Assembly (NCBI RefSeq): GCF_021028975.2
Contig: NC_059426.1
Span: 51,646,001 to 51,710,000, forward strand
Direction: 5' to 3'
Length of the DNA: 64,000 bases
Origin: Sphaerodactylus townsendi
Taxonomy: Eukaryota
Numbering within the stretch: position 1 is the stretch's first letter; each line of letters opens with the position of its first letter. Both the position numbers and the translations under genes were made by a program. The notes below the pieces were generated by a model that worked only from the letters and a program-made list of their open reading frames with translations, was not told the DNA's origin and searched no databases. Shown here piece after piece: positions 1 through 60,689 of this stretch.

Positions 1-130
1 TATTTACACCCAACACTTCACTACCAAAAGGAGTTTCAAAACGGCTTACAATCACTTCCCCCCCCCCCCAACTCTGCCCACAACAGGAACATTATGAGAC
101 AGGAGGGGATGAGTGTTCTGAAAGAAGTGT
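1..130 (-). mobile_element. Squamate tRNA/CORE-type SINE fragment (3' part)
   Basis: Resembles the SINE copy at 16220-16402 (cccacaacag...gagagttctg body). Confidence 0.45.
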
Positions 131-20179: not shown

Positions 20180-21970
20180 GAAGAGCAGTTAGCCTTCATT
20201 GGCGCAAAGGGCGGGAGGGGGGGCTATTCTTCACCAAGAACAGATGCCAGCTGTTGACAGAGACAAAGACTGTGGGGAAAAACATGTTATAAACCATGCC
20301 CTGACAAGAATAGGCACTAAGCAGGGGGAGGGGAAATCCGCTGCTCCCTGCGTCCCATCGCGTCAACGCACTCCACAAATGCTTAGTTATTGTATCTTCT
20401 CGAGCAAGGTCGGGAAAGCTCAGGGGGCGGGAAAGGATCCTGTGAGAGCAGGAAGAAAGTGAAGGCTGTCCCTCGGCAAGTGATCAGGCTCAGTCTCGGA
20501 CTCGAGTGGTGGTGGTGGGGGGCAGCACTTTTGTCAAAAGGGAAAGCATGAAAAAGGCAGGTCATCCTGTCCCCCACGCCTCGGTCGAGCAGGGCAGAGA
20601 CGGCACAGCCGCGATCTGAAACGCCTGCTTAAGGAGACGCGAAAGGACGCCTCGCAGTCGCCTTCCCCACCCAACAAAAGCAAATAAGGACGGCGGTAGG
20701 GCAGTAAAACGAGACGATGACAGGGGCGAGGGAAAGTACGCGGGACGGGCACTGGACCGGGGAAGAGGGCGTCTCTTCGCCCACCCGCACGAGTAGAAGC
20801 GGAAAAGTGGAAGATGTATGTCAGTCACCCGAAGAGACCCACCAGCTCGGCTCTTCCCCCTACTCAGATGGCCGATGGAAGAGACGTGCAAATAGGTTTC
20901 CACCTCGAAGGGACATCTCGACATCTATTTCAGCGGGGGGGCCCCCTGCCCCGCAGCCGTGCGCGCCAGCCCCCTTTCCTCACGCCCCACAATGCGCACA
21001 AACGCAGGCGGGGAGCTGCCACCGCTTCCCCCGTCCCCTTTACGCACACACAGCCCTCGGAGCAAGGAGGGAAAACAGCAGCACGCACGTCTAAGTAGGA
21101 CACCCGGTCAACGAGAGGAGGCGGCGCGGCGCCGGCGGCAGCAGCCCCCTCCTCACTCCCCGGCGCCCTCCAGCACCGCGGCAGACCCCCTTCCCGGCCC
21201 TGGGCACGCGCTGGACAAGCAGCATTTCCAGCCCAGCTTTCCGGCGCTGGTTTATGCAGCAGGGAAAGAGCGAGGCAAAGCCGAAGAGACCCTCTCCTTA
21301 CCAGCTTCTCCTGCGAGCTGCCCCATCCTCGCCCATCGTGTCCCCGAGCGGGGCCGGTGTTTGGCTCCCTCCCCGCCGCACTGGCGAGGAGGCCGGACCT
21401 GGGACTGCAACGCAGCCGCTGCCGCCACTGTAATTGGTGCCGCCGCGGAGGCGCCGCGTCGCCGGGTCGCGGCCAGCCAGACCCACAATCGCAGCACCGG
21501 AGCGGGCGGCGACCCCAACGCGGCGGCGGCTACCTGGGCGCTGCTGCTGCCGCCGCCGCTGCTCAATCAGGGAGCCCGGGCCGAGCAGGGAGCGCCGACG
21601 AGCTGCCCGCCCGGCCGGGAGCGTGCAGAGCCGCCTCGCCTCGTCGGAGCCAGGAGGCGTCTGCAAACTCCCCGCCCCGGCGAGAAGCGTGCACAACAAC
21701 ACCGCCGCAGTAAGGGAGCGTCTGTAAAGTGGAATCCTTTCTCCAGCCCAGGGAGAAAAACGGAGCCAGGCAGAGATGGAGTGTCGGTTAGATTACGAAT
21801 GCAATGATCAAGGAAGAGGAGCAGCAGTGTGCGGCGTTTCCACAGTTCTCAAGAAGGCAGTAAACAAGAGTGCCCAAAGGGGCAGGAAAGGGTTAAATTT
21901 CAACCACCATCCCATCCTCTCTCTGTGTGTGTATGTGTAAAACAGCGCTGCGTGAGCAGGAAGCATCTGC
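20180..21970. promoter_or_regulatory. CpG island promoter of the minus-strand gene
   Basis: Sharp rise in GC and CpG density (core ~20560-21730) in unique sequence; contains a strong minus-strand splice donor and GCC/GCT triplet runs typical of first exons. Confidence 0.9.
21302..21700 (-). other. Exon 1 (5'UTR) of unidentified minus-strand gene; TSS approximate
   Basis: Donor GAAGCTG|GTAAGG at 21302/21301 inside the CpG island. The 5' boundary cannot be fixed from sequence alone. Confidence 0.7.
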
Positions 21971-22559
21971 GGATCTCGTGTCTGGTTGCTCTGAAGTCCT
22001 CACAAACGATTATAAATGTTAAAGGTGTTGGCAAATATCCTGGCTCAGCCACTGAGCCTCTGGGTGATCATCTAATTTTAGCTAAACTCGACTTTCCATT
22101 TTAAAAGGCACGCCTATATTGACATCTCCCGTTCCCCCTTTCCCTAGGGCTTAACCATTGCCAGAAGCAGCAAAAACCAATCTAATAAACCTTTCTGCAC
22201 TGCAGGCTTCCTTACCTTGACAGATAAGGAGACAGCTGCTGCATTCCTAAGAACTTCACTAGAAGTAAGTCCTGCCCCACTGAACAAAACGGATCATACT
22301 TATGAGTAGACTTCCTTGGAACTGCTCCCAGAAACACCAAATCAAGCCAGTAATACACCGGATCAAACAAGCAATATAACAAAAGTTCAGACCCGGGTCC
22401 AAACATAATGTTTCCGAGTCTGATTCAGCGTGCGTCACACACCTAGTCTCTGAACAGAGCCTTATAAATTCTGAAATATTTTTGTTTTGTTGTATTTCTT
22501 AATGTCATTCATAGATCATGCCAGGATATACCTTTTTAACCCAGCACACAAAAACATAG

Positions 22560-23524: not shown

Positions 23525-23955
23525 GTAAAGGTAGTAATCTCCTGTGCAAGCACTGGGTTATTACTGACCCATGGGGTGACATCACAACATTTAATAGGCA
23601 GAGTATGGTTACGGGGTTGTTTGCCATTGCCTTTCCTCGTTGTCTGCACTTTATTCCAGAAAGCTGGGTACTCATTTTACCAGCTTTGGAAGGCTGAAAG
23701 GCTGAGTCAACCTTGAGTTGGGGTCAGATCTTCTGAAGATGCCAGCCACAGATGCAGGCGAAACGTCAGGAGAGAATGCTGCTAGAACACGGCCATACAG
23801 CCCGGAAACCACACAGCACCCCAGTGATTCCGGCTGTGAAAGCCTTCGACAATACAACCTTGAGTTGACAGTACCTGAAACCCACTTCTGTTAAGATTGA
23901 ATTCAGGTCGTAATCAGAACTTGGACTGCAGTACTGCACTCTGTGCTACAGGGTC
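23525..23955 (-). mobile_element. Sauria SINE interrupted by a Penelope-like insertion
   Basis: Hallmarks gtttgccattgcc, agctgggtactcattttacc, ggaaggctgaaaggctgagtcaaccttgag; the SINE resumes at 23856. Confidence 0.8.
23721..23855 (+). mobile_element. Penelope-like 3' fragment with intact minimal hammerhead ribozyme motif
   Basis: tctt-CTGAAGA(23733-39)-t-gcc...ggc-GAAA-cg-TC-agga; flanked by 13-bp duplication caaccttgagttg (23708-20 / 23855-67). Confidence 0.85.
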
Positions 23956-37608: not shown

Positions 37609-38131
37609 GGCCCTTTCCGCACGGGCCAAAAGTGGCGGCGTCGGGCCAATAAAACACCATTTTGGGGGGACCGTTCGCACAGCCGCTGCCGCCAAATCGC
37701 TGCAGCGGTGCTCAGTTCCCGCCAAAATGGTGTTTTTGAACCTCACTCGGGGAGCAAGGTTTTTTGCAAACGCCGGTTTCCATTCGGTGCCATGCGAACG
37801 GCACCGGGTGGAAGCCGGAGTTTCTCCCCCGGCCCTCCCAAACGGTGCTTACCTCCAGTCACCTTCTGTCACGTTGTGCAGGCCAGGAGACATGCCCCCC
37901 TGGCCTCATTCTCCAGGGTCGTCGCTCTGACCAGGGGGGCGTGTCTCCTGCCTCCACAACGTGACAGAAGGCGACAGGAAGTAAGCAGCATTTGGGAGCG
38001 GCGCAGCCTGTGTGAAGGCTGCACCGCCGGCGCCGCTTCCAGCAGGAGCGTTCATGCGAACGGTCCTGCAGGAGTGCACCAGTATAAACTATGCCGATGC
38101 ACTCCCCCTCAACGCCCTTGCGGAAAGGGCC
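37609..38131. mobile_element. ~520-bp PIF/Harbinger-like MITE with central palindrome
   Basis: TIRs ggccctttccgca/tgcggaaagggcc; internal inverted repeat ~37840-37995; CpG-rich; related to 60097-61063. Confidence 0.8.
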
Positions 38132-40309: not shown

Positions 40310-40766
40310 TACTCTACATATTAGTGGGTAGATGAGGTAAGGATTATTGCAAGGTACTTTATCTGCTTTAAGTGCTGTGTAATGATAGTTTGCAACATTA
40401 ATATTTATTTATTTATTTATTTTATTTATACGTTCAGCTTTTATACCGCCCTGTCCCCGAGGATGCATTTAAAGATGCATTCAAGTGAAACTAACCCATT
40501 CAAAGGGACAAAGTTCTGCCCATTTCAAAATAAAGCTGTAAATATAATCCAGTATTCATATGAGTAGAGATTAGTATATTCATGTGTACACATGTATATG
40601 AATCAGACCAAATCTGTTTGGTCTACCTTCTTGCCCTATATTTGCTTGAAACCTATGACTACACAACTATGTTTGGCAACCTGATATATTAAATATGCAG
40701 AAAATAGTATTGCAGTCTACTGAACGATAGAATGGAAGGCCAATTACAACAAACTATTATTTGTTT

Positions 40767-40791
40767 GGGTGCTGTGTGGTTTCCGGGCTGT
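40767..40791 (-). mobile_element. 25-bp Penelope-like micro-insertion
   Basis: gggtgctgtgtggtttccgggctgt is identical to 49487-49511; flanked by 12-bp duplication tattatttgttt. Confidence 0.85.
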
Positions 40792-40919
40792 TATTATTTG
40801 TTTCACTGCAATTTTTCTTTGGAAAGCTTTACCCTACAATATTTTTGTATAAATGGGCTGTTATCTTAGATGATAGATAAGTGAGTTAAGAAGTTAAACA
40901 TTTGCAAAGACAATTCTAA

Positions 40920-41110
40920 ATAGGCGGCTGTGTTGGTTTGTAATAGCAAAATGAAACAAGAATCTTGTGGCACTGTGAAGACTAGCTAATTTTATTCCAG
41001 CATAAACTTCCATTAGAGCTCACTTCTTCTGATGTATCAGCTCCAGCTCATGAATGTTTATTCTGGAACAAATTGATTAGTTTTTAAGGTGGCAATGGGC
41101 TTTTGTTTTG
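40920..41110. mobile_element. Old inverted Penelope-like remnant
   Basis: Degenerate inverted arms (gtggcactgtgaagactagctaattttattccagcataaac / gtttattctggaacaaattgattagtttttaaggtggc). Confidence 0.5.
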
Positions 41111-43196
41111 TAAGTAAACAAAAATAATATTTACATGAATTTTTACCTTTGTTTTAAAAAGTGTCAACTTTTCTGTCCAATTGCATCAAATAGCCGCAAG
41201 ACAGATGTCTTCAATCTCAAGTATTTTCCAGTTCAAAAGCAGTGAATGTAGAAGTAGATTACTTTCCTTCTGATACTTTTGATTTTTGTTGTGCTGGGTT
41301 GCTCCCAAGTTTTTTTTCCTTTTGGGATCCTTACCTATATTTCCCCCAACAACCCTTATTTTTCCACTAGTTACATTGACCATAGCCATAGTCATACAGG
41401 GAATTTTGTTTTGTTCTTGCCTGGGCTTATAGAAACCTCAGCCAACTTGGTTTTATATTACATCCAGTACAATCCCATGCATTTTAATCAGAAATAAACA
41501 GTGGAATTTTTCTACAAGACTAGAGGCACACCATTGATGTTGGCCCCATCCATGTTTACCATGAATGTTTACTCTTTGCATGTGTAAACAGTAATCTGAC
41601 AATGGGGGAAAAATGGTCCCAGAAACCCATTTCCTTGAGAAATCTTGGTAGCCCTTTCTGCAATGAACTGTAGGTATTTTCCAGAACATCTGGCCTCCAT
41701 CATCTTTTGTTGTAGAGATTTCATGCTCATCAACATATACAAGGTTGAATACTAATTCACTGAAACAAATCATTCCTAATGGAAGGGAATTAGCTGGAGA
41801 AGAACTGGAAAAGATTGGGCTAGTTAGTTGGCTAATAGCAGTGAACTAACATCTTTGCCAAGGTGGTCTTCCAATGTATTTGTTGGTTTTTCCAGAGGTA
41901 TGGGGGTATTCCTAGAGGTCATGGCCTTGAACTGGGTAGAAGACTGGTGAGCAGAGAGATAGAATATCAGCTTGGGACTCAGACAGGGACAGACTGGGAG
42001 GCCAAAATGGCCCTAGAAGAGCACATGGAATGAAAGGGCCATTGGCTAGTATCTTCCTGACTCAGATGAGGCATGGACCATTGCCAGCTCTTGCCCACCT
42101 CCTGCAGGGCAGGGGCTGACACCTCATGGTTGTAGCAGTGTGTGTCTGGGGTGGGGACTGCTTGTGATGGTGGTGGCTTCTGACTCCCTCATGCAGGGTG
42201 GGACCCATGGCTTTTCATAGCAATGGATCACATCTACTTGCTTGTAGTGGCTCTCACATGCCTCACATAGTGTTACCTTGCTTAAATATCTCGCATAGCG
42301 TTCGGGTGGCCCAAGCCAAGGGGCATTCCCCAGGCCATCAACCAACCAACCCAGACTTTTCCTGGTAACTTCAATGACCTAAATGCACCTCTGCACTAAG
42401 AATGATGCCTCCATTTTGGGTCCTATTCAGGAGGGGAAAGAAGGATAGAAATGAATGAATAAATAATTTAATTTGTATGTAATAATTTTTAAAAGCCAAT
42501 ATTTGAAAAGTGTATTTGTTTTACATTAGCAATTTTTCTGTTGTAGAATATAGAATTCGATTTGTTGAGAGAGAGGCAGACAGAGGAAAAGCAACACAAA
42601 GAGACAGAAAATAATGAAAAAAATCCCCAAGAACTGATAAGTAAAACATCTTCCATATGTATTGCATTTTCCCAAGGGGGAATGAATCAAGACTCAGATT
42701 CTAATGTCTAGAGTATATATTTGTTGTTTTCATACCCCTCTTCTCAACCAACAGAAGGCAAAATGATTAACACTTCACTTATATCTTTCTAGGCCTTGGA
42801 CAAATTTATGATGTTACTTAACTATAATTTACAGTATCCCATCCAAACAATGCTGTCACCATCTGCAGACAGAATGAGCACAAACAATTCAGAAGGGAAT
42901 AATAGAGTGAGGATTATTGTAATTTTAGATGAATAGCATATATCCAAGCAGGTAAAGCAATTAAGTGCAGAAACATATCTTCCCTTTGTGAAACAACAAT
43001 AATATCCAATATATTGTGACCATTAATGTTCATGTTAGAGACTAAATAGGTTTTCCTGAATAGGAAAACAATGCCCTCCTATGATTGTTTTTGCGCTTAA
43101 TGTTCCACTTGGGCATTAGACTAGAAAATACTGCAATCTGAAAATGCACGCATAAAAGGAAAATCCTCTCCAGAGGATTAAATGATTGTTTCAGAT

Positions 43197-43993
43197 CAGT
43201 GGTTTCCAAATTTTTCAGGCTGCCCCTCCGCTCCCAGGCCACATTCCTAGTTGTCACTCCCACCCCCATATATGAGTACACACCTCTTTCTCGGTAGTAG
43301 GTCTACTGCAAATATAGAACAACTTCTAACACATATGTATTTCACAAATTAAACATGACCTAGTAAATGTAAACCAATTCATTGAGCTGTTTTAGCAATA
43401 TTAAAGGTTATGTTTGCATCTCACCTGTCATGCCTTCACAGTTTTAATGGGATGGATGTGCTGGTGGGATTCAGCAGGTTTGCACCACTTCGGCAGAACC
43501 GGTTGTTAAAATGGTGCTTGTAAACAACCAGTTGTTAAATGATTTGAATCCCACCACTGGAACCAGATGTTAAATGATTTGAATCCCACCACTGGATGGA
43601 TGTGCTTGGCGCATGGATACCAGCTTCTCAACATTAGATTGCAAGGCACTAAGAAGTCTTAGATCCCCACATTTAGCCATTTTCAGCCTGTTTCTCTGCT
43701 TGGAAAGAAGCTGGGTGACTGCACCAAAGCCCGCCCTGCTCTACTAAATATGAAGTTGGGAAGGCAATAAAGTACATCTTGATTTTGCCCCACAGTTCAG
43801 GGTGGCTCCCTCACTACACAGAGAGGAGAGTGCTGCTGCTTTTCCTTTAAAACTCACCAGTCACCAGGATGGAAGGACCAGACCTTTCCCCCACCAGTTT
43901 GCCCTGTGATATTTCCCTACCACATGCAAACTGCTTGATGTTCCCACCACCCCTCGGGGGGGGGGGCAGTACCACCCACTTTGGGAATCCCTA
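43197..43993. mobile_element. hAT-like non-autonomous element containing a nested CAGTGGTGGGATTC-family MITE (43463-43594)
   Basis: Outer termini cagtggtttccaaa / tttgggaatccct; inner MITE flanked by gatggatg duplication. Confidence 0.55.
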
Positions 43994-45099
43994 TTTCAGG
44001 TGGTTCTACTGATCTGCAAATTAGATAAAGAAATGAGGAGGAAGTAAGACAATCTTGGTTGGTTCCGTTCGTAAATGCAAGGTAAAAATTACATGAAGGA
44101 ATAATTGCTAAACTATTACAAGAGTTGTGTAGATTTCAAAGATCTTGGAAACGTACCGAATGACAAGTATAAATGTTTTCTTGGTTACAATGATTACATG
44201 ATCAGAAATTATTATGCAAAGCTTCATTGGGAAGAGGCCAAATAAGCTAATAGTTTGTGTGAAATCATAAACCAGCCATGAGAAAGCCCCAAAGATGAAA
44301 AAAAAACCTGTAAACCCTGGAATGCACCAAATAATTGTTATACCATGTCACTGAAGAAATACCATCTTCCTGATCTCCTGATTATATTCTGAAGCCTTCA
44401 GTCCTTCTTCAGAAAGTGAAATAGTGTTTTATGTGTCAGTATTTATTTTGAAGATGGAACATCAAATCAGTCTTGCACTTGAAACTGGCACCTGTCACCA
44501 AGAAGCATAATAATTCAACCCAAAGCAAAGATTATTTAAGAAAAGCAGTAAGGTGCTACAAGCAGATCAGTGGTAAACAAATCACTATGTGCAAGGACAG
44601 ACTTGTGAAAAAATTAAAGTTTTGTACGGAAACTCCTTGTATTAATTCCCACAATTTCTTTTAATTTTCTTGCCATTTTTTTTCTTTGGATTCAGGACAA
44701 ATAATGGAACAACTTTTTCTAGTTTTAGATCAACAGTTGCTTTGTATGATAGGTTAGGCTACACTGACTTCCTGCCAGGGTGTCAGGGCTCAGTCGAAAG
44801 GTATAAGGAGTCAGAGACAAGGTCAAAAGCAAGCTTAGTCAGGGTTTCTAAATATTTAAGGTCCATGGATGCACCCAGCAACTGGGGAGGGGAAAGCTTA
44901 AACTAGCTTTACAATCAGAGACAAGTTATCCTGAATGAAGCAGTAGGGAAACTAGGGATTTATAGTACTAGAGATATAACTCCTGAAATTGCAGTCTCCA
45001 AATTGCCACAAAATGGTAGCAACTATTAAAACAAGTGAATGATTCAGATGTTATTTTCAGCTGTCCAAACAGGAAAGATATACAAAGACAAATATCGAC

Positions 45100-46400
45100 T
45101 TTATCAGCGAGGGAATTAGAAACTGGATTTTATGATAAGCACTGGGTCTCTCAAGTGTCCACATATCTCTCAAGTGTCCACATGTCACAGTCACCATACC
45201 TCATAGCCAAGAGGAGTTCCACACCTCTTGTCAAGAAAGTAAATAAATCAGCTAATTTATTACCATCTGTAAGTATTGAATACTTCTAAGTCTGAAAGTC
45301 TGAAGATCCAACTGGCCCTGTTTTCATGGTCTATGGGAATTCTCCTTAATTGGTATGAAACTATCTCCACAAGTATAAATAAGTTAGCTTCACCCATGGC
45401 TCACTGCAACAAACTTTCACTTTTGCAAAAGGGTCCTTGAAATGCTCATAAATCACCCCACCGCTCCTTTATCACCTTGATGCATGACCAGAAAATAAAA
45501 AAGTTTAATAATCTGTCAAAGTCAAAGAAAGTTCCACATACCATTCTCTGAAAAATAAATAATTCAGCTTATTAGTCAAGATCCCCTTGTCATCACCGCC
45601 ATCAATTCGATAGAGAGGATTCACGTATCTTCCTTCTCCTTTATTGCCCCAGCTTGTCAAATTGTAATACATTTAAATCCACAAATCTTGTATTTTCCAA
45701 GGCAAAAGTTTCTGTAATCCACTGAAAGGCATAAAACCTTGTAACTGTACAGGTAAAGTCCAGGCAAAATGAAAATTACTCCAAACCAGGAGACAAAAAA
45801 AATCCCGAACAGAAGATTTCAGCAAAAGGGTCCCTCAAGTGTCCGCATATCACACCAAGAACTCTCCAGTCACCATACCTCACAGCCAAGAGGAGTTCCA
45901 CACCTCTTGTCAAAACAGTAAATAAATCAGCTAACTTATTGCCATCTGTGAGTGTTGAATACTTTTAAGTCTGAGAGTCTTAAGATCCAATTAGTGTAAT
46001 TCAAACAACCACAACAAAAGAATAAGAAGGCTTCTCTAATTTCTTTATTAATAAAAATGTCTTTAAAAACAACAAAGCCCTTGCTGCAGATCCAAAAGAA
46101 AAACTTAAATAATAGAAATGGAAGTAAGAAATTAAAGAAAAGGGGTGGTGATGGTGAAGAGGCTGTCTCTTCTGCCAAAACGGCACACTTACACTCACTG
46201 ATCCTGAATGTTGCCAAAACTAGTAGGTCAAATTAAACCCAAACTAGCCCACCTGTCTAATTAAAGGTCCTAAAAAAACTGATGAGACCAGAGATAGACC
46301 CAGTCCACTCTTTATCCAGCTGTTTGCCCCTTTCAGTGAGTGCAGTCTGGAACTAACAAGAGCTCAAACCTAATGAGATGCCATGTCTTCTGGAAGTCTG
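45100..46400 (-). mobile_element. Putative L1/Tx1-derived non-autonomous element or LINE 5' region with internal duplication
   Basis: Minus-strand start gacttccagaagacatggc resembles GACTTCCGG..AAGATGGC L1-type 5' ends. Internal ~150-bp direct repeat (45160-45311 vs 45834-45990); no intact ORF. Confidence 0.4.
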
Positions 46401-49400
46401 CTCTTGAAAAATTCATGCCAGACTCCTCAACTTTTTGAAGAGATGACTACACAAAGAACTTTATTTTTAGTAGGTTTCTTCTCATATTGTGATAACCCTT
46501 AATCATAAGGCCTTCATGAAAGACAACCATTTCCAGAATACTAAATTCAAGACATAGGTTGATGTGCCATGTTAAACAAGTAATAGAAAATGCAACAGCA
46601 AAAGAACAGTTCTAAAATCTAGGTTTTATTGTATTGGAAGGGAATACATTCTGAATAATAAGGTCAGGATAAAAAGAAAGGGGGAGGAGAGGAAGAGTAG
46701 GGACTCACCATCTCTGATTTTCCAGCAACCAAGTATCCTATGAAGTTACTTCTTCCATTGTTCACAGTCTTGACTACAGCTTTTGATGGGGAAACAAGAT
46801 GATCAGTAATCAGAATTAGGAGATGAAAGGCTGGCATTCTTCTAATAAGGATGTTTCTCCTAACAGTGCTAAAGTCATAGGTTATCAGAATTTCTGTATG
46901 TCATTCAGAACAGCTAAAGATTTTGCTCCTTTTAAAAAAGCTGAAAAGGGCAGAATCAATATTTATAGTTTTTATGAAAGTGATTAAATTCAATAAGCCT
47001 TAGGTAGCACTTCTTATTGATTTTTTACAGGTCCTCAAATCAAGATTATTGAGAAAACAGGTGAGAGTTGATGAGGTAAATTAGTACTCTGTAAAGGGAG
47101 TGCTATTGTTAAAAATGGTCAATGAAATGGCTTCTATATTTCCAAAGATGAATGGCAGGCTATTAATTTAATTTGTTGCCTCATTGCTTTGTATGTAATT
47201 GTGCGACTGGACATTGATTTTGAGGCTGCTGTTGCCAATGCAATGGATAGCATTCTGCTCTGGAAGGTAATAGACATCTAACGTTTTGTGGCAGTTCTTC
47301 TCATAGCATATTTTCTCAGGAATACTAGGCTGGTGTGAGGGACAGAGAACTGGACTTGGACCCAAGTTTAGTTCTTATAATGAACTCATGGGTTGAGTGT
47401 TCTTAGGTGTCACATAGCTTCAGTCCTTTATTTGTAAAATGGGAACAATAACAACCCTTCTTTTATTATTTAAAATTAATTTATATGCTGCCTCACCGTA
47501 CGCTTAGGGCAACCAATTTCATTAAAAACACAAGATGCTAAACATCTTATTTTTTAAAAAAGAATGCATGATGTAAGAAACCCAAATTTCCCACAAAATT
47601 TGTTTGGTAAGGTGACCTTGGAACTGAAAGAGCAAATTACTTCTGAAAAAGGACTGGTCACACTGCTTACGGAAAAACAGTAAGGAAGCTATCCTGAGAA
47701 CCTCGGCAGGAGACCTAGCACCTGGATCAGGATGATTCATTTGGAACTTTGGCTGGAATGACTGGTAAATAGGGACTGTTGACAATGAGCATGTGCAAGC
47801 AAATGATAGCCATTTGAGCAGACCAAAGGGCTGTAGAGGAGACTATACAGACAAAATTGTGATGAATCTTAGAGGTCCAGTTGCCTTCCATATGCAACTG
47901 TAAATAGTTTTACTCTGCTTTGCCAAAAAATATTTTAACCCCTTCCAAGAAAGTTAATTAACCTTATTTTTACATTGTGCCAGTTTCTTGATTTATGTCT
48001 AGTCATATAGTGGACAAAGTATTTTTCTAAAATATAACAAGATATTATAGGTGGTAATGCTCTAACTTCACTTAATGTGTAATAACCTGTAGAATAAGTA
48101 AACACACTTTTAAAGCATCCTCACATATACCAGAATATCTGCCTTTAGAAGCTAGGTACTTGTTTTAGAGTCCCATATGGGGCAGGGGGAATCCACCCAT
48201 GGGAGCAGCAGTCAGTCACTCTGACAAATTTGCCCCTCCCGGGACACTTGCCCCTGCAGAAGGGTGGAACCACTGGCATGTGGTCACCACAGCCCTCCCT
48301 GGTGCTGAGATGTGGTGCCCCTGTGGTGCCCCAGCTCTCATAGCAGGGGTAGGCTGGGGGCATGGCCAGGGAAGGAACCGACATTAGTTGGCTCCCTTCC
48401 AGTCATTAAGCACGTTATGTCGACAGCTGGGCCTTCAGACTTATGCAATCCTTTTGAGTGGCATAAATCTGTTAAACCCAATGAGGGCTTCCTTTGGGAG
48501 CAGCAGGGCTGCAGGGCTGCAGGGCTACAATCAGCCTCCTGAAGTCTTGGATGGGGCAGACTGTCAGTCAGAAAAGGGGACGGTGGCAACATCAAATAGA
48601 TTTCATATCATGCTACTCTATCTACACATAATTCCAAATTACTGCCCTTCACACATGGTTACTTGGAGAAGCAAGTAAACTATAAATGATAGTATGCAAC
48701 TTCTAAAAGCCTCCAAGTGAAATTGGGAAAACTGGCATTCCTGTTGTTAAACAGGAACATAGCTATAAAAAGCATTTTCAAGACCTGGTGGGATGGAAAC
48801 AAAGTGAAGGAACAGCAATCCTTTGTTTTGTTTATAAATGGCCTGAGATTGAGGATGATATGTGAGGCGTCCAAATTTGCAGATGACATCAATTGTGCAA
48901 TTCTAAGCAAAGTTATGTTCTTTTAAGTCCAGTAACTGAAATGTATTTGAAGGGAGCAGCAGGGACTGTGTAGGGGAGGGGTCACAGCATATGCTGTGAG
49001 CCAACTTTCAAAAGGTGAAATGTGGTGGGGTGATCCGCACTAATAGCACTTGACTTCCAGCACACACCTGGAAGACATCTGCTTTAGGGCCTGAAGAATT
49101 GAACCTCCTTGTCCATTCTGCTTGGAATTTAGACTGTCTTCAGGTCAAAGTGAGAACTCAGTTCTGGGCAATTTGGTGCCATTATCTTTAAAAATGATTG
49201 AACAAGACCTTCACATTAGTTCCTCTATTAAAAATAATGCTCAGGAGATTCAAGATTTAGGGGGAAAATCCTCATGCAGATTGGAATCCTAAATATGTAT
49301 TGCTTGGCTCCCAAACCAGAAATTCATGGTAAAGGTGTCTCCTTCAAATCCTGGATCCAAGATTAAAATCATAATTTTTTGAGATCACACTTATACAATT

Positions 49401-49484
49401 TATACTCCTATACTGTATTTCCATTGCCTTACTTTGGCCTAGAGGTCGAAAACATGCTTAGCATGTAAAAAATTGTGAATTCTT

Positions 49485-49716
49485 TTGGGTGCTGTGTGGT
49501 TTCCGGGCTGTATGGCCGTGTTCTAGCAGCATTCTCTCCTGACGTTTCGCCTGCATCTGTGGCTGGCATCTTCAGAGGATCTTCAGCCACCAGATCCTCT
49601 GAAGATGCCAGCCACAGATGCAGGCAAAACGTCAGGAGAGAATGCTGCTAGAACACGGCCATACAGCCCGGAAACCACACAGCACCCAAGTGATTCCGGC
49701 CGTGAAAACCTTCGAC
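49485..49716. mobile_element. Palindromic Penelope-like mini-element with two opposed hammerhead motifs
   Basis: 98-bp arms 49485-49582 / 49592-49689 with 1 mismatch, 9-nt spacer and ~27-nt unpaired 3' tail; 13-bp duplication aattgtgaattct at 49471 and 49717. Confidence 0.9.
49536..49580 (-). ncRNA. Minimal type I hammerhead ribozyme motif (PLE-associated)
   Basis: Minus strand: stem I tcct/agga; core CUGAAGA; extra U; stem II gcc/ggc; GAAA; palindromic ACGU stem III; GUC cleavage triplet. Confidence 0.7.
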
Positions 49717-49993
49717 AATTGTGAATTCTGTTTTTGACAACCCTTATCAGAAATTATTTTAGGTAACAGGTTTTTGAGAAATACCTTTTCCTGCTTGAGC
49801 CCCTGGAGAACTACTACAGGTGAGGGCAAAACCCAAAAAGTTAATTGCATGCATGTGTGATGATAGTTTGGATTACGACCATTAGGGATGGGTAGAGAGG
49901 TTATTAGCTATCACTAGCAGTTCTGAAAGAAAAAAAGAATCCTTTTAACAACCTGACTTTTGCTCTTTTAAAAAATAACAGAACTGCTGGAAG

Positions 49994-50780
49994 CAGGGGC
50001 GTAACGAGGCAGCCCTGGGCAAATTGTAGCCCTGGGCAAAACCTGAGTTGGATGCCCCACCGCCCCATGGGCGGCCACTCCACCATGACCAATTTTTTTT
50101 GCACCAGGACATTGGTGCCTGCAGGAGGTGCCTTTTTAGACACATCAGCACCATAATTTCAGCATATCATCAGGAGACTGTCCTTATGCTACTCCCCAAG
50201 TTTGGTGAGGTTTGGTTCAAGGAGTCCAAAGTTATGGACTCCCAAAGGGGGTGCCCCATCCCCCATTGTTTCAAATGGGAGCTAATAGGAGATGGGGGCT
50301 ACAGTTTTGAGGGTCCATAACTTTGGCCCCCCTGAACCAAACTGCACCAAACCTGGGGGGTATCCTCAGGGCAGTCTCCTGATGAGACCCTGAAAGTTTT
50401 GAGACTGTGCCTTCAGAAATGTGCCCCCCCAGCCTGCAACACCCATGGACAGCAATACAGAAAACTCAATGCAGAACAAAGATTCTTGGGCAAATTTCTG
50501 GGATGTTCCTGCAGGGGGTGCATTTTTGGATGTATCGGCACCAAAATTTCAGGGTATCATCTGGAAACTGTCCTTATGGTACCCCCAAATTTTGGTGCAG
50601 TTTGGTTTAGGGGTCCAAAGTTATGGACCCTCAAAGGGGGTGCCCCATCCCCCATTCTTTGCTAAGGAGATGGGGGCTACCCTTTGAGGGTCCATAACTT
50701 TGGACCCCCTGAACCAAACTGCACAAAACTTGGGGGGTGCCATCATCTCCAGATGATACTCTGAAATTTTGGTGCCGATA
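49994..50780. mobile_element. Truncated hAT-like element built of two ~390-bp tandem units, each an imperfect palindrome
   Basis: caggggcgtaac terminus; cctgcagg at ~50118 and ~50507 mark the units; each has gtttggt..ggtccaaagttatggac...gtccataactttgg..accaaac inverted arms; ends at a (TA)n run. Confidence 0.65.
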
Positions 50781-51593
50781 TATATATATTAAAAGGGTAT
50801 GCACCTTAAGTGAGTTGAATCATCACAAAAAATTGCTGGCGTCTGACCTCATACTTGTCTGAAACAAGGTTCTACTTTAGGTTTTGCACCATATCTGCTT
50901 TGGATTCCTATCCTAATGGCCTCCCCAGACCACATTATAATACCAGAACATTTCATTTCAAGAATAATCTTAAGGACAGCATGTTAAGTAAAAGTCACTT
51001 CTAACTCTGATAGTGAACCTTGATCTGCAAAGATGTTCACAAGCTTCTTACAAGGTAAGGGACTACATTTACATATGTGCCTGCAATCTCTTACAATTCA
51101 CCCACAAGAGTAATCAAGCATCTATAGACAATGTGCTGTAAGTAGATCTGATGCTAGGAAGGTTGTTATGTCCACAGTGATTGAAACCCCACAGAGAAAT
51201 GATCAGTGGCACACATCTGAGTAAGCTGCCCTAGAGCGTCTCAGAGTGATAAGATGTTGCCTAATGCTACCAATGAGAGATCTCACGGAAAACTGGCATC
51301 TACTTAGAAGAAGAGTTTGGATTTATGTCTCATCTTCCTTTCTCCCTCTCCCCTTCTGTTAACATACTCATTCCCTTGCTTTTACCATTCCTTTTATCTG
51401 GCAACCTGCTCCCATCTCTCCCCGCTCCATTTTTCTCCATCAATGTATCCTATGCCCCTATCTCTCCCCACCTACCCCCCACCCTTGGCATTTTACCCAG
51501 CCTTCACCTTTGCTGCTCTCCTCACCTACCTTCCAGCAGATGATTGGGCACGCTTGCTGGCTTGGCAAGGGGGCAGCGAGGACTACCCCTCCC

Positions 51594-51712
51594 ATGGTGG
51601 GATTCAGCAGGTTCGCACCAGTTCGGCAGAACCGGTTGTTAAAATGGTACTTGTAAACAACCAGTTGTAATCCCACCACCAGAACTGGTTGTTAAATTAT
51701 TTGAATCCTACA
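51594..51712. mobile_element. hAT MITE (CAGTGGTGGGATTC family), degenerate
   Basis: ggtgggattcagcaggttcgcacc...gaatcc shared with the 34993 and 43463 copies. Confidence 0.75.
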
Positions 51713-51792
51713 GCTGCCCCCCTTCACATACACATCCCACCTGATGCCTCCCACAAACCCTTACAGATTTCCACTTGGGCCATTCCTGTTTA

Positions 51793-51985
51793 CAGCATGG
51801 TGTAGTGGTTGGATTAGGTTTGGATAAATCCAGGTTTGAATCTGTCCTCTGCCAGGGAAGCTTCGGTGTCCCTGGGTCAGTCATATGCTCTCAGCGTAAC
51901 TTATCTTACAAAGTTGTTAGGAGAGGAGAACAATGAAAACTGCTTTGGGTCTCCCACAGAGAGGAAGGTAGGGATATAAATGGAG
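51793..51985 (+). mobile_element. tRNA/CORE-type SINE
   Basis: cagcatggtgtagtggtt A-box-like head, ggtttgaatc B-box-like motif, CORE-like body and gatataaat end. Confidence 0.7.
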
Positions 51986-53575
51986 TGTTTTATGTTGAAG
52001 GACTTTTTATTGACTGAGATGTTGATTTTATTGCCATTTGTGTAGAACATGAATGTAAATATTGATGTTGGCTCTATGGCTTTATGTTTTTTGTTCTTGT
52101 TGTGTGTAAGTGTAGTTCTGTAAACCATCTCTATGATGGAAAAAGCATACTATAAATATGTTCTGGCTCTAGGTAATGAACTACATCTGCTATTACTATT
52201 ATTAGTAGAATCTTTCCAGAGTCTTATCGGCTAATAAAATTCAAGTGAGGAAGTGCTGGATCCATTGTTCATTATCATTAATAACTCCCTATGTGAAAGC
52301 ACCTTGCTATTTGGACTGTTCTGTGAAATATATTAGGACTAGGATTAATAAATTCTGCTTAAAATGGCACTTTTTTTAGCCCATGATCTCAAAGTGCTTT
52401 GCCAGTATTAAACTAGAACAGAAAAGCATTAAGTATGAAGTGAAAAATGAACCCTTCTCTTATTTTTGTTAAACAAAATGAATGAGGTAATTCACTGCCA
52501 ATTTACACTGGTGTAGTCCACATGAACTTTAATGGGGCTACTACATCTGTATCAATAAAGAACAAATGCTCCTTTTAAATTATTAAGGTTTTTTTCCTGC
52601 ATCAAGGGCAGGCATGAACAAGAAGGATTTCATTTCTCTCTGCCATTTGATCTGGAATCAACCTCAAGAGTAATCCGACCTATGGCATGCTAGTTGCCTT
52701 GAGAAATGTGCTAATGTATGCCATACAAAGCTATTTGAAATCAGGATCTTCACCCATGAGGATAATGACAGGGCTTGCTAGCAATATTTGGAAACTTGGT
52801 ATTTCCATAAAGGAGCATGGAAATTTGTATCCTTGATCCCATTGAAATAAACAAAATAACGAAGCTACTTCTCCAGATAATTATCACAAGGCTAGGCTCT
52901 GGTGAAACAGTCACCTGAACCAGCAGTAATTAATGAGATTGAAAGGAAAACACAGACTTTTACCCTGAGACTATTGAAATCTGTAAGCAGTATGAATTGT
53001 GTGTGCATGTATGTGTCTTTTTTTTAAAGTTACAGGCATTCCTTTTTAAAACTTTTTAAACTCCCTAATGTATTTTTTAAAATTTTAATAAATATTTTTA
53101 ATAAATGATTTCAGGTTTTTCTGCAGATAGGGGACATTTTTCATGTTTATAGAAACAGCTATCTTGTCCATGGCTCCACTCTCTGCATTTAAGTATCTTC
53201 AGATTTGGCCAAATTGAGAAATAGAAATGGGGACCCACAAGAAAATTGCTGGAATGGCCAACCTGTTCACTCCACCATTGCTTCCTCCCCTCTCTCACAC
53301 CTCTTCACTCACTCTGTCTCTCTTTCTACATCCCCATTTGTACTCTTACATTTTCTCTCTCTGTCTTTCTCTCTTCCCCCGCTCCTGCTGTCATCTTTTC
53401 TCTCTCACTCCCTTTCCCTGTAGATACTGTCATTCCTTTCCCCTCACCTCCATGCACACCATTACTCATTCTCTCTGTCACACTCTTCCCATGCATACTG
53501 CCACTCCTATCTATTGTTTTATTTTTCCATTCCCCAAATCCTACTGTAATTCCTGTCTTTCTCCCTCCCATATCC

Positions 53576-53781
53576 TATGGTGACCAGACGTCCCGCGGCT
53601 GCAGGAGCGCACTGCCTTCTGGGGCGCTCCCGTTTCCCGCCCTGTCACAGGGTGGGAAACGAGAGTCCCCCAAAAGATAGTGCGCTCCTGCGGCTGCGCG
53701 TGCATGTGCGCACGCGGCCGGCCGGCCAGTTGCCCGGCCGCCCAGGTCCCGGTTTACAACAGTGACAATCTGGTCACCTTA
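53576..53781. mobile_element. hAT (Blackjack-like) MITE
   Basis: TIRs tatggtgaccaga / tctggtcacctta; perfect 8-bp TSD ccatatcc; CpG-rich. Confidence 0.9.
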
Positions 53782-56340
53782 CCATATCCCATCACTTTCT
53801 CTCTCTCCCTTTCCTATCCCATCTGTCTCTTTTTCTTTTTCTCTCGCCCAACCTATCATTTCCCTGTGCTATGTTACACCAAACAGTTGCAGGAGAAAGG
53901 ATTTGGCAAAGGGGATATAATAGCAAAGATGGCAGGGCTTGTAGCAGCAATTCTTCCTCCCCCTCTTGCAGTAGCCCCCCACCAACCGCAATGCTACCTA
54001 ACTGCCTCAGAGGCTGAGAGGAAAGGCAGTGATGGTGGGGCTCACTCTCCCATCCACAGCACAACCATCTCAAAGGATGGGAAAGAGATTAGAGGTCAAT
54101 AGTGGTGCTTCTGTGCGGAGAGGTTTGTTCTGGGGATTAGTTCCCCTGTCCATTTTAGGTCAATTTTAATTTTTTCTGCAAACCTGGGGGCCCCAAGATT
54201 GCAAGAAATCTTCCTTATCTCCACCTGGTCTCAAGTATCTGGAGATGAGGCCTGGTTGAGGATTAGGCAAGTTAATAATGGAAGAACGAATCAAGTATTG
54301 AAAAGGGTCTCCCCATAGCCGAATATGTCAGTGTTTATTCTGGTATCACATATTGGCTCAAATGCTACTCCTAAGTAGGTCTACTTGGAAGTAAGTCCCT
54401 GTGACAGACATAAGAAAAGTAGTGTACAAAAGCTCCATTCCATAAAATGCTATTTCAAAACTAGGACCATGCAGAGGCAGGAAAAAAAATCTGACTATGA
54501 AGTGCTAATTCTTCACAGAAACTATGTGTATGAGCGACATGCTGGGAGTGGGTGGAGTTTAGAACTCAGTCAAAGCTGCTGATGCAATTATTGGGGAGAA
54601 TGGTTGGAATCAGAGGGTTCGGATGTTATGTAAAGACTTGTGGTGTTGGCAGGGAAAGAGTTTTTTGTGGAAAGGACCCTACTTTAGCCAAAGAGGGGAA
54701 TAAAAGAATTCCTACCCCATGTTCTAAAAGCAGAGCTAGTTTGTCTCCTGAACTGTGAGTGTAGAACAGAGGGCACTGGCTACATGAGAGAGATGGTGTC
54801 AGAGAGGGACCAATCTCTAGTCAGGAGGGGAATTTAAACTGTGTGTGGGAGACAAATTCCCATCCTTGGTTCTGAGGTGGATTTACTTCAAATGCTCTGA
54901 AGTGATCCTACAGTTCAGGGAAGTCTGAAGGGAAAAGGGAATTGGGTGAATACTCCATTCCTTCTAGATTTTGGGCATCAGAGTTTACACATGAACCTCA
55001 GGATGCAAGTCTGAGTCAAAGATGAATAACAACAAGAAAGTCGATCTTATTTCAAATAATTTAGGAATCTGTAACAAACTGAGTTCTGAACTATTAAGAA
55101 CATTGAATATCTGTATATAAGACTACCTCTTTCCTTCTCTCCAAATTTGTGCCCACTTTTATCCTGTTCCCCTGAGGAGTTTATTAAAATTCTAATGTTT
55201 TATGGTTGAACTTTGAACAGTATCTAGTGTAATAATCTCTGAGCTAAAACACAGAAGAGAGATAAAACACAGTTCCTTAAACTGGTTCAGTTATACATTT
55301 ACTTTAGTGAAATACAGGGTAAGGCACTTGAATTAAAAAAAAACCCAGAAGGTCATATATAATAAAGCTGATCAGAGACATGATCAGAAGAAGTGAATTA
55401 CAAAAGAATTAGGGAACATTCCTGCCTATAGATTATCTCCCCGATAACGTGGGAGATGCCCCAGTTGTGACACTCCCATTTTATTTAATGGCTAGTTATA
55501 AAAGACAGAAATCAGGTACCTTTGGGTCTGAATCTCACCTCTGGCATGATCTCACAAGGTGATTATAGGCAAATCATTTCTACCTCTCTGGATAACAATG
55601 GCCCTTTCTACACAAGTCACATTTCCAGGACATTTTCAATCCTGCCCCTTTTATCATGATATTTGTCTGCACTCACCCCCTCCAAACATTTCATGACTGC
55701 CATGAGGGGTTCAAAAAAAATATTTTTTTGCTTTTTTGTTGAAATGATGCTTTATTGATTCACTGCTTCACTGCTCTGTAGCTCTGTTTAATCAAGACTT
55801 TGTGGATTAACCCAAATCAAAACAAAACAAAAAAGGCACATGAAATGAGAGGGGAGGAGGAAAGGAATGAGATCAGGGATGTGGAAAAATGGCAGTGAGG
55901 GGAAAACTGGGCAATGGCACAGAGGTGTGAAAAACAGCAGTGGGAAAGATAAAACGTAAACATGACTGCACTGAGAGGAAAGCTGGCTTAGAAACATTTC
56001 AGACAAAAGAATTGTTTTAAAATGGAGAAAAAAGCTGCTTGGAAATATTTTCAGAACCAAAGAGGGAAAAATCAATGCAGAACTCCACAGAGGAACCATT
56101 TTATTTCCTGCCTGAAAATGCTCTAAATGGTGTATGAAAGCGTTTTAAAGGGTGTATGTAGAAAGAGCCTACACCAGTCTTCCTTGCATGGTAAGGATCA
56201 CAATATTATTGTGTGCAGAATTTTGCACAGTGAAAATCAATATATTATGTGATTATTGTGGCATGTGATCATTAAAAACTATACGAAATCCATGAATACT
56301 ATTGATATTGCTAAACCGTACACAGGTGAGTTACCCTGTG

Positions 56341-56688
56341 CAGTGGTGTAGCTACCATGGGGCGGGGTGGGGACACATTTCCCATTTGGGTCCCTGTTTG
56401 GTCATGTGGGGCGTGGAAAGTTGCCCCCTACACCTCTCCCCCATCCTTTCTTGGCCAGCCCTGGCCCCACCAGGCTGCTCCTTCAGCCAATGAAAACAAG
56501 GCATAAGTGCCCGGCAGAGGCCGCAGCTAGGCACCCCTTGGCCTCGTCCCACCAGCCCCACCAGGCTGCCTGGGACCGCCGTTGGCTCAGGTAAGTGAGA
56601 CGTGGGGGGTTGGGGTTGCGGAGGAGGGGTGCCATTTCCCCCTGGGCGCCATTTTCCCCAGGCACCATTTCCCCCCGCTACACCTCTG
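56341..56688. mobile_element. hAT (Tip100-like) MITE
   Basis: TIRs cagtggtgtagc / gctacacctctg; perfect 8-bp TSD accctgtg. Confidence 0.9.
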
Positions 56689-56789
56689 ACCCTGTGAATT
56701 GCCTTATCAGCATGCATTCCTCAATATTAACGTGGCGAGGCTTGGTTTTGGACTTTGGGTGTAGCATGTTACAATTTAACTTCCTGCAC

Positions 56790-57320
56790 CACCCTTCTTC
56801 TCAGGACAGAGTAGGGACCATATCACTCTAGTCATGTTCTACCTACAATGGCTTCCAATTTGCTTCTGGATTCAATTCAAGTAGCTACTATTGACCTTTA
56901 AAGCCCTGTACAGCCTGGGACCAACATACCTTAAGGACTTGAATTGTTCCATATCAACATGTTCATTTACTCCAGTCATCTTCAGTGGTCTTACTTCAGT
57001 TACCCCCGCCATCTGAGCCTTGACTTTCTTGGTTGTGGCACCAAACTTTGGCACTCCCTCCCCACAGAGATTCCTCTGTCTCCCTTTATCAGTGTAATCT
57101 GCCAGCAAGTGGAGACTATTTTGTTTCCTTTGGCATATCCCCAGGAACAGATATTGTCCCTCCTCCCTGGTGCTAGTGTTATTTGTTTATGTGCTTTTAT
57201 TGAATTATTTTATCATTTTAAATGTTGCTTTTAATTGCTCAAAATTATTCCATGCATTTATGTGTTCTGCCTCAGGGACCCTGATTGGGTGGGAAGGCAA
57301 CATAAAAATGTTCCAAATAG
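56790..57320 (+). mobile_element. Older L2 LINE 3' end
   Basis: LLLTFKALYSLGPTYLKD remnant, LWHSLPTEI motif and 3'UTR homologous in layout to 32748-33325. Confidence 0.75.
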
Positions 57321-57689
57321 ACTACTACTACTAATATCTATGTGGGAAGACCACAGATGAATAATAATATCTATATGGGAAGTTTACATTGCATGAAGCA
57401 GCATTTATGATAAAACATCAATTGCACCAAGTGCACTTCAGTGGATTTTTACTGAGCCTACAGCCACTAAACAAGAATTGAAAAGTCAGATTGGATTACC
57501 ATTCTTATACTCTTCTTTATTCTATTGTATAGGTATTCTGAGGTTATTTGCTTGGCTGTCCAAAGGTGTTAGCAACTTGTAGGAATGACCCTTCAGTGAA
57601 CTAGGTTCCTGTCTAAATGTAAACAGGAGCTCCTTTGAGCTATGTTATTTCAGTTTAATATTCAGATTTTCCAAAAGGCTGCTGAAAAG

Positions 57690-58030
57690 GCTGCATTTTC
57701 AGATGGTGCTGGACATTCCATGAATACATTTTGGGTGCCTTCTAAGAGATATATTAGAGCTTGTCGTCTGTGCTTAAATGTTGAATTAAAAGACTCTGGC
57801 CAGACGTCTGACAGGAAATGCTTTTAAAAATAACCTAATCTTTTACATGAGTGAAGGCTCTGAAAGCCTGTAGATATTGTTTATTACTGACACCTGCTAA
57901 ATGAACAGCTGGAGAAAGGGCTTTTTCAATCATAGTCAAGTTCCCGAGTGCTGACAGGTGCTGAGCAATAAGCTACCCAAACAATTTATTTTTCAAAGTA
58001 CCCTTCAACTGACAAAGCAGAAAGATGACC
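57690..58030. promoter_or_regulatory. Candidate enhancer (E-box/TALE cluster)
   Basis: CAGATG 57700, TGACAG 57809, TGACACCTG 57888, CAGCTG 57906, TGACAGGTG 57952 in unique DNA. Confidence 0.35.
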
Positions 58031-60164: not shown

Positions 60165-60289
60165 CAGTGGTGGCGAACCTTTGGCACTCCAGATGTTATG
60201 GACTACAATTCCCATCACCCCTGCCAGCATTGACCATGCTGACAGGGGCTGATGGGAATTGTAGTCCATAACATCTGGAGTGCCAAAGG
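60165..60289. mobile_element. hAT palindromic MITE lacking its right TIR
   Basis: Body homologous to 1775-1907; TSD ccctggga on both sides. Confidence 0.85.
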
Positions 60290-60689
60290 CCCTGGGACCT
60301 TTCGAATAGATGGTCCTGCTGGGTGTGGCACCGACAGCGCAGCCTTCGCGCAGGCTGCGCCATCCCAAAACAGCTCCTTACCTTCTCCTGTCTTCTGGCG
60401 CTCTGTGTAGGCCAGGGGACACGCACCCATGGCCAGAGTGATGGCTGCAGCGACGGAGGCCAGGAGGCATGTCCCCTCGCCTCCACAGAGTGCCAGAAGA
60501 CAGGAGAAGGTAAGGAGCTGTTTGGGATAAATGGCGTCTTCCACCCGCTGCCATTTGCATGGCAGCGGGTGAAAGATGCCGCTTTCAAAAAACCTCGCTC
60601 AGGGAACGAGGTTCAAAAGTGGCGTCTTCGTGCCGCTTGGGGGTGGCGAGGCCAGCACTGCTGTGATGCAGCAGCGCCAGCTGTGCGAA

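What the first reader, a model, noticed from the sequence alone, without database searches (positions are those of the whole stretch)
49471..49729. Palindromic Penelope mini-element with two opposed hammerhead ribozymes, one switched off by the only arm mismatch
Seen: a 98-bp inverted repeat (9-nt loop) plus an unpaired ~27-nt tail, bounded by a 13-bp duplication. Each arm carries a hammerhead core. The minus-strand copy is intact (CUGAAGA...GAAA-CG-UC). The plus-strand copy has GAAA>AAAA at 49626, the sole mismatch between the arms, which falls at a CpG. Established: Penelope-like elements carry minimal type I hammerheads with a palindromic stem III that cleave as dimers, and form inverted pseudo-LTR structures. 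Inference: this ORF-less unit is a very recent insertion and may be a mobilisable ribozyme-bearing hairpin RNA. A transcript through it would also form a near-perfect ~100-bp dsRNA stem (siRNA/ADAR substrate) competing with ribozyme folding.
Basis: partly seen in the sequence, partly recalled or inferred. Interest (0 to 1): 0.75.

Follow-up and report, generated by a model that had tools for sequence, protein, structure and literature searches.

The report
Mirror-image stump of a Penelope retrotransposon
This hairpin-shaped stretch is a recent 246-base insertion, absent in two related species, made of two back-to-back copies of the start of a very common Penelope-type jumping gene; it was likely built in one landing event, and its two ribozyme motifs are predicted to be inactive passengers, so it is an ordinary example of a known insertion pattern.

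Summary
In detail: 98-bp arms with one mismatch, 9-nt loop, 27-nt tail, 13-bp duplication. Contigs of two related species carry the empty site, so this is a 246-bp insertion. It is the first ~125 nt of a Poseidon-clade Penelope element (about 82% like the Anolis element PAc, hand count) joined head-to-head to a tail-less copy of itself: the published 'inverted copy plus tail' form of Penelope insertions. The family is very abundant and shows hundreds of different inverted junctions, so the mirror is likely built anew at each landing, not copied as a unit. The G>A change is a CpG transition like those at 11-27% of depth across the family's CpGs. Neither ribozyme is predicted to fold in a read-through RNA (72-79 kcal/mol penalty), so there is no 'switch'. 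One possibly new detail: many copies begin at an Inr-like motif 30 nt below a TATA box, suggesting both arms are run-off cDNAs ending at the element's RNA start. This scan reached the same reading before on shark DNA (e1-7858806). Low interest.

The parts
49471..49483 (.). Left copy of the 13-bp AT-rich target-site duplication
   Evidence: empty site with one copy in organisms C and D
49484..49484 (.). One extra T between duplication and inverted arm (not templated by the forward copy)
   Evidence: 49484 T does not pair with 49690 G
49485..49582 (-). Inverted, tail-less copy of the Penelope 5' end, element positions -13..+85 (ATG = +1)
49536..49580 (-). Minimal type I hammerhead with intact core; predicted cut between 49541 and 49540
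   Evidence: descriptor scan; layout as in PMC4209133
49583..49591 (.). Head-to-head junction (loop): 4-8 nt of filler that repeats nearby element sequence, then the start of the forward copy (49587 or 49591)
   Evidence: 8-mer 49579-86 repeats 49568-75; 7-mer 49584-90 repeats 49609-15; family upstream sequence attaches at 49587
49592..49689 (+). Forward copy of the Penelope 5' end, -13..+85; starts at an Inr-like motif (predicted RNA start A49592)
   Evidence: RNA start is inference
49594..49638 (+). Hammerhead with G12 changed to A at 49626 (CpG transition); predicted cut site after 49633
49605..49716 (+). Stump of the Penelope ORF (codons 1-38), ATG at the start of helix II, cut site 26 nt after the start codon as in PAc
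   Evidence: PMC11167929
49690..49716 (+). Penelope 'tail' (+86..+112; up to +115 with 3 nt shared with the duplication)
   Evidence: PMC11167929; PMC8557442
49717..49729 (.). Right copy of the target-site duplication

Best explanation
The element is a single recent insertion of a Poseidon-clade Penelope retrotransposon in which two short copies of the element's 5' end sit head-to-head, likely made during landing when the element's enzyme nicked both strands of an AT-rich site 13 bp apart and primed one short cDNA from each nick. Shown: insertion with target duplication, empty site in relatives, homology and register with the Anolis element, arm ends at +85 and +112..115, many different junctions in the family. 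From published work on PAc: the enzyme nicks and extends both target strands, starts reverse transcription inside the RNA at sites that bracket the tail, uses uncleaved RNA, and product length is set by the RNA's 5' end. Inferred: one cDNA started at about +112 (tailed arm), the other at about +85 (tail-less arm); both ran to the RNA's 5' end near -13 and were joined with a few filler bases. Both arms run uncut through the hammerhead site, so the templates were uncleaved RNA. The ribozymes are passengers; one later lost G12 by CpG decay. The unit is likely dead on arrival; if transcribed from outside it would be a dsRNA hairpin, not a ribozyme.
For: Empty site in X5 and X7 contigs, both junctions in X2. 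ATG at the start of helix II, cut site 26 nt after the start codon, insert end at +112..+115 match PAc (cut 26 bp after the start codon; RT start 111-118); 94 of 114 nt identical to the PAc template printed, no gaps (hand count). Inverted 5'-truncated copy plus a 30-40 bp tail at one end is the standard PLE form (PMC8557442; PMC3846280). In the window a 28-bp tail-less copy ends at the same +85 point with its own 12-bp duplication (40764-40791) and a solo tailed copy starts at -14 with a 13-bp duplication (23725-23853). 43,370 contigs of X2 lie on the stretch; 15 joints shown plus 483 hidden, all shown ones different. CpG transitions at 11-27% of depth at the 10 CpG positions tabulated. Forcing the ribozyme helices costs 72 (plus) and 79 (minus) kcal/mol; helix probabilities 0.0 in the whole unit.
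Against: Only 15 of 498 joints were shown, and contigs cannot tell which arm carries the tail, so two-nick priming is not separated from fold-back self-priming. Fig. 1G of PMC11167929 could not be seen, so +85 as the second RT start is deduced from their text on the tail. Depth at loop position 49585 is 3,513 in X2 (flanks about 27; element body about 9 million when mirrored positions are summed), 6,916 in X5, 2,183 in X7, mostly with this locus's letter: probably chance extension of alignments, but a small subfamily sharing this junction is not excluded. The forward copy may begin at 49587 (-18), 5 nt above the predicted RNA start. No whole genome was held, so the genome-wide junction count could not be run.
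Confidence: 0.85

Rival explanations
1. Same element and same inert outcome, but the inverted arm arose by fold-back: one cDNA ran to the RNA's 5' end, snapped back on itself through the filler bases and copied itself, and the endonuclease resolved the end at +85, leaving the tail.
For: Self-priming was proposed for head-to-head Penelope junctions (PMC3846280) and EN-mediated resolution for the tail (PMC8557442). The arms are identical but for one CpG, including A at 49688 where 63% of family depth has C. The loop repeats nearby element sequence.
Against: A tail-less copy ending at +85 exists alone, in one orientation, with its own duplication (40764-40791), and many contigs end near +83 in diverse AT-rich flanks, so +85 is a primary end without a fold-back partner. 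PAc extends both strands in vitro.
Confidence: 0.3
2. The palindrome is a non-autonomous mobile unit (retrozyme- or MITE-like) whose hairpin RNA is copied by the Penelope enzyme in trans.
For: Clean duplication and tail; depth over the loop is above single-copy level in X2, X5 and X7; Penelope enzymes can mobilise pLTR-flanked sequences in trans (PMC3846280).
Against: All 15 shown joints differ and 483 more exist; loop depth is about 0.04% of body depth; 0 of the 3 other family copies in the window share the junction; no TATA box inside the unit; ORF part ends at +112, short of the +172 needed in vitro; retrozymes are tandem direct repeats (bioRxiv 2026.07.22.740005).
Confidence: 0.07
3. The hairpin has been kept as a functional host RNA (siRNA or ADAR substrate, or a strand-specific ribozyme switch set by the G12 change).
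For: Near-perfect 98-bp stem; Penelope is the only massively A-to-I edited LINE-class repeat named for lizard besides chicken CR1 (over 40,000 sites; PMC5625713); present in both samples of organism A.
Against: Lineage-specific and young; G12 is 2 of 16 CpG-mutable positions in the arms and core CpGs are half of them; the intact ribozyme is masked in either transcript; no host gene was identified nearby (0 Pfam hits in 30 and 102 ORFs).
Confidence: 0.04

Closest known systems
Poseidon_Ac (PAc), Penelope/Poseidon-clade element of Anolis carolinensis (Frangieh et al. 2024, PMC11167929)
   Same: Collinear with the PAc ORF start (94 of 114 nt, hand count against the template printed in the paper); ATG at helix II, cut site 26 nt on, end at +112..115, tail, AT-rich target.
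   Different: A related family, not PAc itself; only a 246-bp stump with no RT or endonuclease; the paper's main text does not discuss inverted or palindromic products (term search).
PLE insertions with inverted pLTR and 'tail' (Arkhipova et al. 2013, PMC3846280; Craig et al. 2021, PMC8557442)
   Same: TSD, inverted 5'-truncated copy head-to-head, tail on one end only, TATA and Inr-like motifs in the pLTR.
   Different: Here the forward unit is itself only the 5' stump, so the whole insert is a palindrome with a 9-nt loop.
Minimal hammerheads of metazoan PLEs (Cervera and de la Pena 2014, PMC4209133)
   Same: CUGANGA core, extra base between 9 and 10.1, G10.1-C11.1 pair, palindromic 15.2-16.2, no loop 3; that paper already notes pairs of min-HHRs 100-700 bp apart on opposite strands.
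   Different: Cores here are under 60 nt apart inside a perfect stem; one has lost G12.
Non-LTR retrozymes (Li et al., bioRxiv 10.64898/2026.07.22.740005)
   Same: ORF-less, PLE pLTR-derived, type I hammerhead.
   Different: Retrozymes are tandem head-to-tail repeats that put two ribozymes on one RNA; this unit is head-to-head with one sense ribozyme per strand.

Membership tests
Endonuclease-bearing PLE (Penelope/Poseidon) insertion | Homology to pLTR/ORF start of a Poseidon element | tested here: met
   Register of ATG, cut site and end; 94/114 nt by hand
Endonuclease-bearing PLE (Penelope/Poseidon) insertion | Hammerhead within the pLTR | tested here: met
Endonuclease-bearing PLE (Penelope/Poseidon) insertion | Inverted 5'-truncated copy adjacent at the 5' end | tested here: met
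Endonuclease-bearing PLE (Penelope/Poseidon) insertion | Tail of about 30-40 nt at one end only | tested here: met
   27-30 nt, slightly short of the quoted range
Endonuclease-bearing PLE (Penelope/Poseidon) insertion | Target-site duplication at an AT-rich site, empty allele | tested here: met
   contigs 17 (X5) and 24 (X7)
Autonomous PLE | ORF with RT and GIY-YIG endonuclease | tested here: not met
   only codons 1-38
Minimal type I hammerhead (PLE type) | Conserved core, helix I and II, palindromic 15.2-16.2 (minus-strand copy) | tested here: met
Minimal type I hammerhead (PLE type) | Conserved G12 (plus-strand copy) | tested here: not met
   A at 49626
Minimal type I hammerhead (PLE type) | Self-cleavage as dimer or with PLE protein | not testable with these tools
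   predicted masked in the whole unit
Rfam hammerhead families | Covariance-model match | tested here: not met
   0 hits at gathering score in the window; no hammerhead among 12 hits at E<=10 in 49300-49900
Non-LTR retrozyme | Tandem direct repeats, each with a hammerhead | tested here: not met
   head-to-head arrangement
Non-LTR retrozyme | Circular RNA product | not testable with these tools
   no RNA holder listed
Non-autonomous mobile unit (MITE- or SINE-like) | Same internal junction recurring with different flanks | tested here: inconclusive
   junctions shown all differ and loop depth is about 0.04% of body depth, but above single-copy level; no genome to search

The most novel reading that the evidence does not exclude
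Because Poseidon-type enzymes start reverse transcription only ~100-125 nt below their own RNA start, they routinely make 'strong-stop'-like run-off cDNAs from the 5' pLTR; two of them, one from each target nick, join head-to-head and seed these genomes with large numbers of self-contained dsRNA hairpins whose inner ends cluster at the element's transcription start. This would explain the mass of 100-130 bp Penelope stumps and why Penelope dominates A-to-I hyper-editing in lizard. Support: 11 of 15 shown joints have one end at -14..-9, 7 of 12 shown filler-bearing joints end at -14..-12, and a loose-end consensus (60 contigs of X7, agreement 0.65) puts a TATA box 30 nt above an Inr-like motif at -13; the printed PAc template has the same 30-nt TATA-to-Inr spacing (hand count). 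Caveat: the reference's family homology ends at -14, which by itself piles joint ends there.
Probability: 0.45. Interest if true: 0.5.

Novelty: new member of a known kind. Interest (0 to 1): 0.22.

Why it matters
As a locus it matters little: it is one of very many Penelope stumps, useful as a lineage marker (present in organism A, absent in C and D). As an example it is a clean genomic footprint of the still unsettled Penelope integration cycle: tail, inverted arm and duplication all land on the positions mapped in vitro for the Anolis enzyme. If the arms are run-off copies ending at the RNA start, a simple census of such palindromes could decide between two-nick priming and fold-back, and would link Penelope landing to the dsRNA and RNA-editing load of squamate transcriptomes.

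Tried and rejected
Rfam: no hammerhead model matched; the microRNA-family hits at E<=10 are far below their gathering scores and reflect the long stem only. No whole genome held. X4 (organism B) had too little cover at the junctions to call the site filled or empty. Host gene: 0 Pfam hits in 30 of 66 ORFs of 100 aa or more in the window and in 102 of 109 ORFs of 55 aa or more in 41000-58000 (the other 7 were); short exons would be missed, so intron versus intergenic is open. Summed contig depth was not used as a copy number. Assembly artefact rejected: both junctions are in X2 contigs and the empty site fits exactly. The idea that copies start at the ribozyme cut was rejected: depth does not fall 5' of +29, though 2 of 15 shown joints are compatible with an end there. 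The 3 nt at the left junction of the 23725 copy could be a tiny inverted arm starting at +85 but are too short to count. Earlier-note search by sequence and by place found nothing. Literature: searches for Penelope + strong-stop, Penelope-like + twin priming, Penelope-like + pLTR + transcription start, Penelope + head-to-head + target site duplication and Penelope + lizard + palindrome + inverted repeat listed no paper whose title or abstract describes run-off palindromes; the library lacks most subscription papers (e.g. Arkhipova 2006), so absence from print is not established. Supplementary figures S1-S2 of PMC11167929 gave almost no text and its GenBank file could not be read; Fig. S2 may already show the 5' boundary.

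Full report
Observation. The arms are 49485-49582 and 49592-49689 (98 nt) with one mismatch, C49548 opposite A49626; the loop is 9 nt; a 27-nt unpaired tail follows; a 13-bp direct repeat bounds the unit at 49471-49483 and 49717-49729. The RNA fold has z = -27 and none of 200 shuffles folds as well. A minimal-hammerhead descriptor run over both strands of the window gave 3 hits: the minus-strand arm and two other family copies; the plus arm fails because GAAA reads AAAA. Rfam has no matching hammerhead model at the gathering score or at E<=10.

It is an insertion, and a recent one. Laying four public contig sets on 49000-49990 showed single contigs of organism C (X5) and organism D (X7) running from 49470 directly into 49717: the 246-bp insert and one copy of the 13-mer are missing. 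Their flanks differ from the window at 25 and 26 of 745 positions (3.4-3.5%). A second sample of organism A (X2) holds both junctions; organism B (X4) was uninformative. So the insertion postdates the split from C and D but is shared by two samples. One CpG change in 98 paired sites fits that age; 'very recent' cannot be sharpened from one event.

What the sequence is. Frangieh et al. 2024 (PMC11167929; I read parts 1-3 of 4 of the text, and the near-empty text of two supplementary PDFs) describe the Anolis Poseidon element PAc: ORF start at the beginning of helix II, ribozyme cut 26 bp after the start codon, reverse transcription starting 111-118 nt into the ORF, the tail lying between two start sites, both target strands nicked and extended, AT-rich targets, ribozyme active only with protein and not needed for insertion, and the first 172 ORF nt required. 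In the window the ATG is 49605, the predicted cut falls 26 nt after the codon, the tailed end is +112 (to +115 with 3 shared bases) and the tail-less end is +85. Compared by hand with the template printed in that paper, 94 of 114 nt from the ATG are identical without gaps. The host is therefore likely a squamate (inference). An inverted 5'-truncated copy next to the 5' end and a 30-40 bp tail at one end are the standard features of PLE insertions (PMC8557442, passages; PMC3846280, passages). Cervera and de la Pena 2014 (PMC4209133, parts 1-2 of 4) define the minimal ribozyme seen here and already mention pairs on opposite strands.

The family and its junctions. The window holds three more copies: a solo tailed copy at 23725-23853 (96% identical, starts at -14, 13-bp duplication), a 28-bp tail-less copy at 40764-40791 ending at +85 with a 12-bp duplication, and an 80% identical copy of another subfamily at 13635-13758. 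None shares the loop. In the contig sets 21,539 to 47,045 contigs lie on the stretch, and the joint table lists 15 different junctions with 483 more hidden. Chance extension of alignments from tens of thousands of contigs is the simplest reading, but a small subfamily with this junction is not excluded, and no genome was held for a direct count.

The 'switch'. A49626 is G12 of the hammerhead core, the general base (established knowledge, recalled), so that copy is predicted dead. But it lies in a CpG, and the ten CpG positions tabulated for X2 carry transitions at 11-27% of depth. Two of the four CpGs in each arm are in the core. The intact copy is no better off: in a head-to-head unit either transcript makes the antisense arm first, each strand has only one sense ribozyme (no dimer partner), and forcing helices I and II costs 72 and 79 kcal/mol with pair probabilities of 0.0 in the whole unit. 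Both arms pass uncut through the cleavage site, so the templates were uncleaved RNA, as reported for PAc.

Mechanism. Best reading: the element's enzyme nicked both strands 13 bp apart; one nick primed a cDNA from about +112, the other from about +85; both ran to the RNA's 5' end and were joined with a few filler bases that repeat nearby element sequence. The rival is fold-back self-priming of one cDNA (PMC3846280); the lone tail-less copy at 40764 argues that +85 is a primary end, but contigs cannot separate the two. Either way the unit lacks the promoter and ORF positions 113-172 and is likely unable to move again.

A possibly new detail. The inner ends are not random: 11 of the 15 shown joints have one end at -14..-9, 7 of 12 shown filler-bearing joints end at -14..-12, and depth drops from millions to 167,000 at -15. 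The family letter at 49590 is T in 91% of depth, giving an Inr-like motif around A49592, and a loose-end consensus in X7 (60 contigs, agreement 0.65) places a TATA box 30 nt upstream; the printed PAc template shows the same spacing (hand counts). TATA and Inr-like motifs were noted in rotifer pLTRs, whereas Drosophila Penelope has a TATA-less internal promoter (PMC2377424, passages). In vitro, shortening the RNA's 5' end shortened the product. This suggests run-off cDNAs ending at the RNA start. Against: the reference's family homology ends at -14, which biases joint ends; 13 of 15 joints have unknown letters between; only 15 of 498 were shown; this locus's forward copy may start at -18. Searches listed no paper on this point, within a library that lacks most subscription journals.

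Host side. No gene was identified nearby and no RNA holder was listed, so transcription is unknown. If transcribed, the unit would be an ADAR-type substrate; Penelope is reported as massively hyper-edited in lizard (PMC5625713, passages). Other, unrelated palindromic repeats of 100-160 bp occur in the same window, so hairpin-forming repeats are commonplace here. Retrozymes (bioRxiv 2026.07.22.740005, part 1 of 5 and passages) are tandem direct repeats and do not fit.

Verdict. A real, young, well-formed example of a known Penelope insertion product; ribozymes likely inert; not a demonstrated mobile RNA. Interest 0.22; new member of a known kind.

Noticed in passing
window 23708-23867: Solo tailed copy of the same Penelope family (96% identical, intact ribozyme core, G-U in helix I) with a 13-bp duplication, inserted into another repeat; starts at -14, with 3 extra G that could be a tiny inverted arm from +85.
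   Followed up: yes
window 40755-40803: 28-bp tail-less Penelope insertion ending at +85 with a 12-bp AT-rich duplication.
   Followed up: yes
window 13635-13758: Copy of a second Penelope subfamily (80% identical, same ribozyme head, core CpG decayed); its upstream sequence matches a loose-end consensus in all four runs; no duplication found.
   Followed up: partly
window 49590-49596 and loose end before 49587 in run X7: Inr-like motif with a TATA box 30 nt upstream in the family's upstream sequence; many copies begin there.
   Followed up: partly
joints 49538>49645 and 49571>49632: Two of 15 shown junctions are compatible, within microhomology, with an end at the ribozyme cut site; could be rare copies of cleaved RNA, or chance.
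   Followed up: no
window 1767-1915 and 60178-60289: Two related palindromic elements (86% and 94% self-complementary), unrelated to Penelope, MITE-like.
   Followed up: no
window 37835-37998, 60362-60528, 53594-53698, 50144-50783: Further self-complementary repeats, including a ~640-bp element with internal direct and inverted repeats 270 bp right of the finding.
   Followed up: no
window 10458-10613 and 12091-12249: Two 92% identical copies of a ~157-bp repeat in opposite orientation 1.5 kb apart.
   Followed up: no
window 20001-22000: GC-rich island (62%) with several overlapping long ORFs and no Pfam hit.
   Followed up: partly
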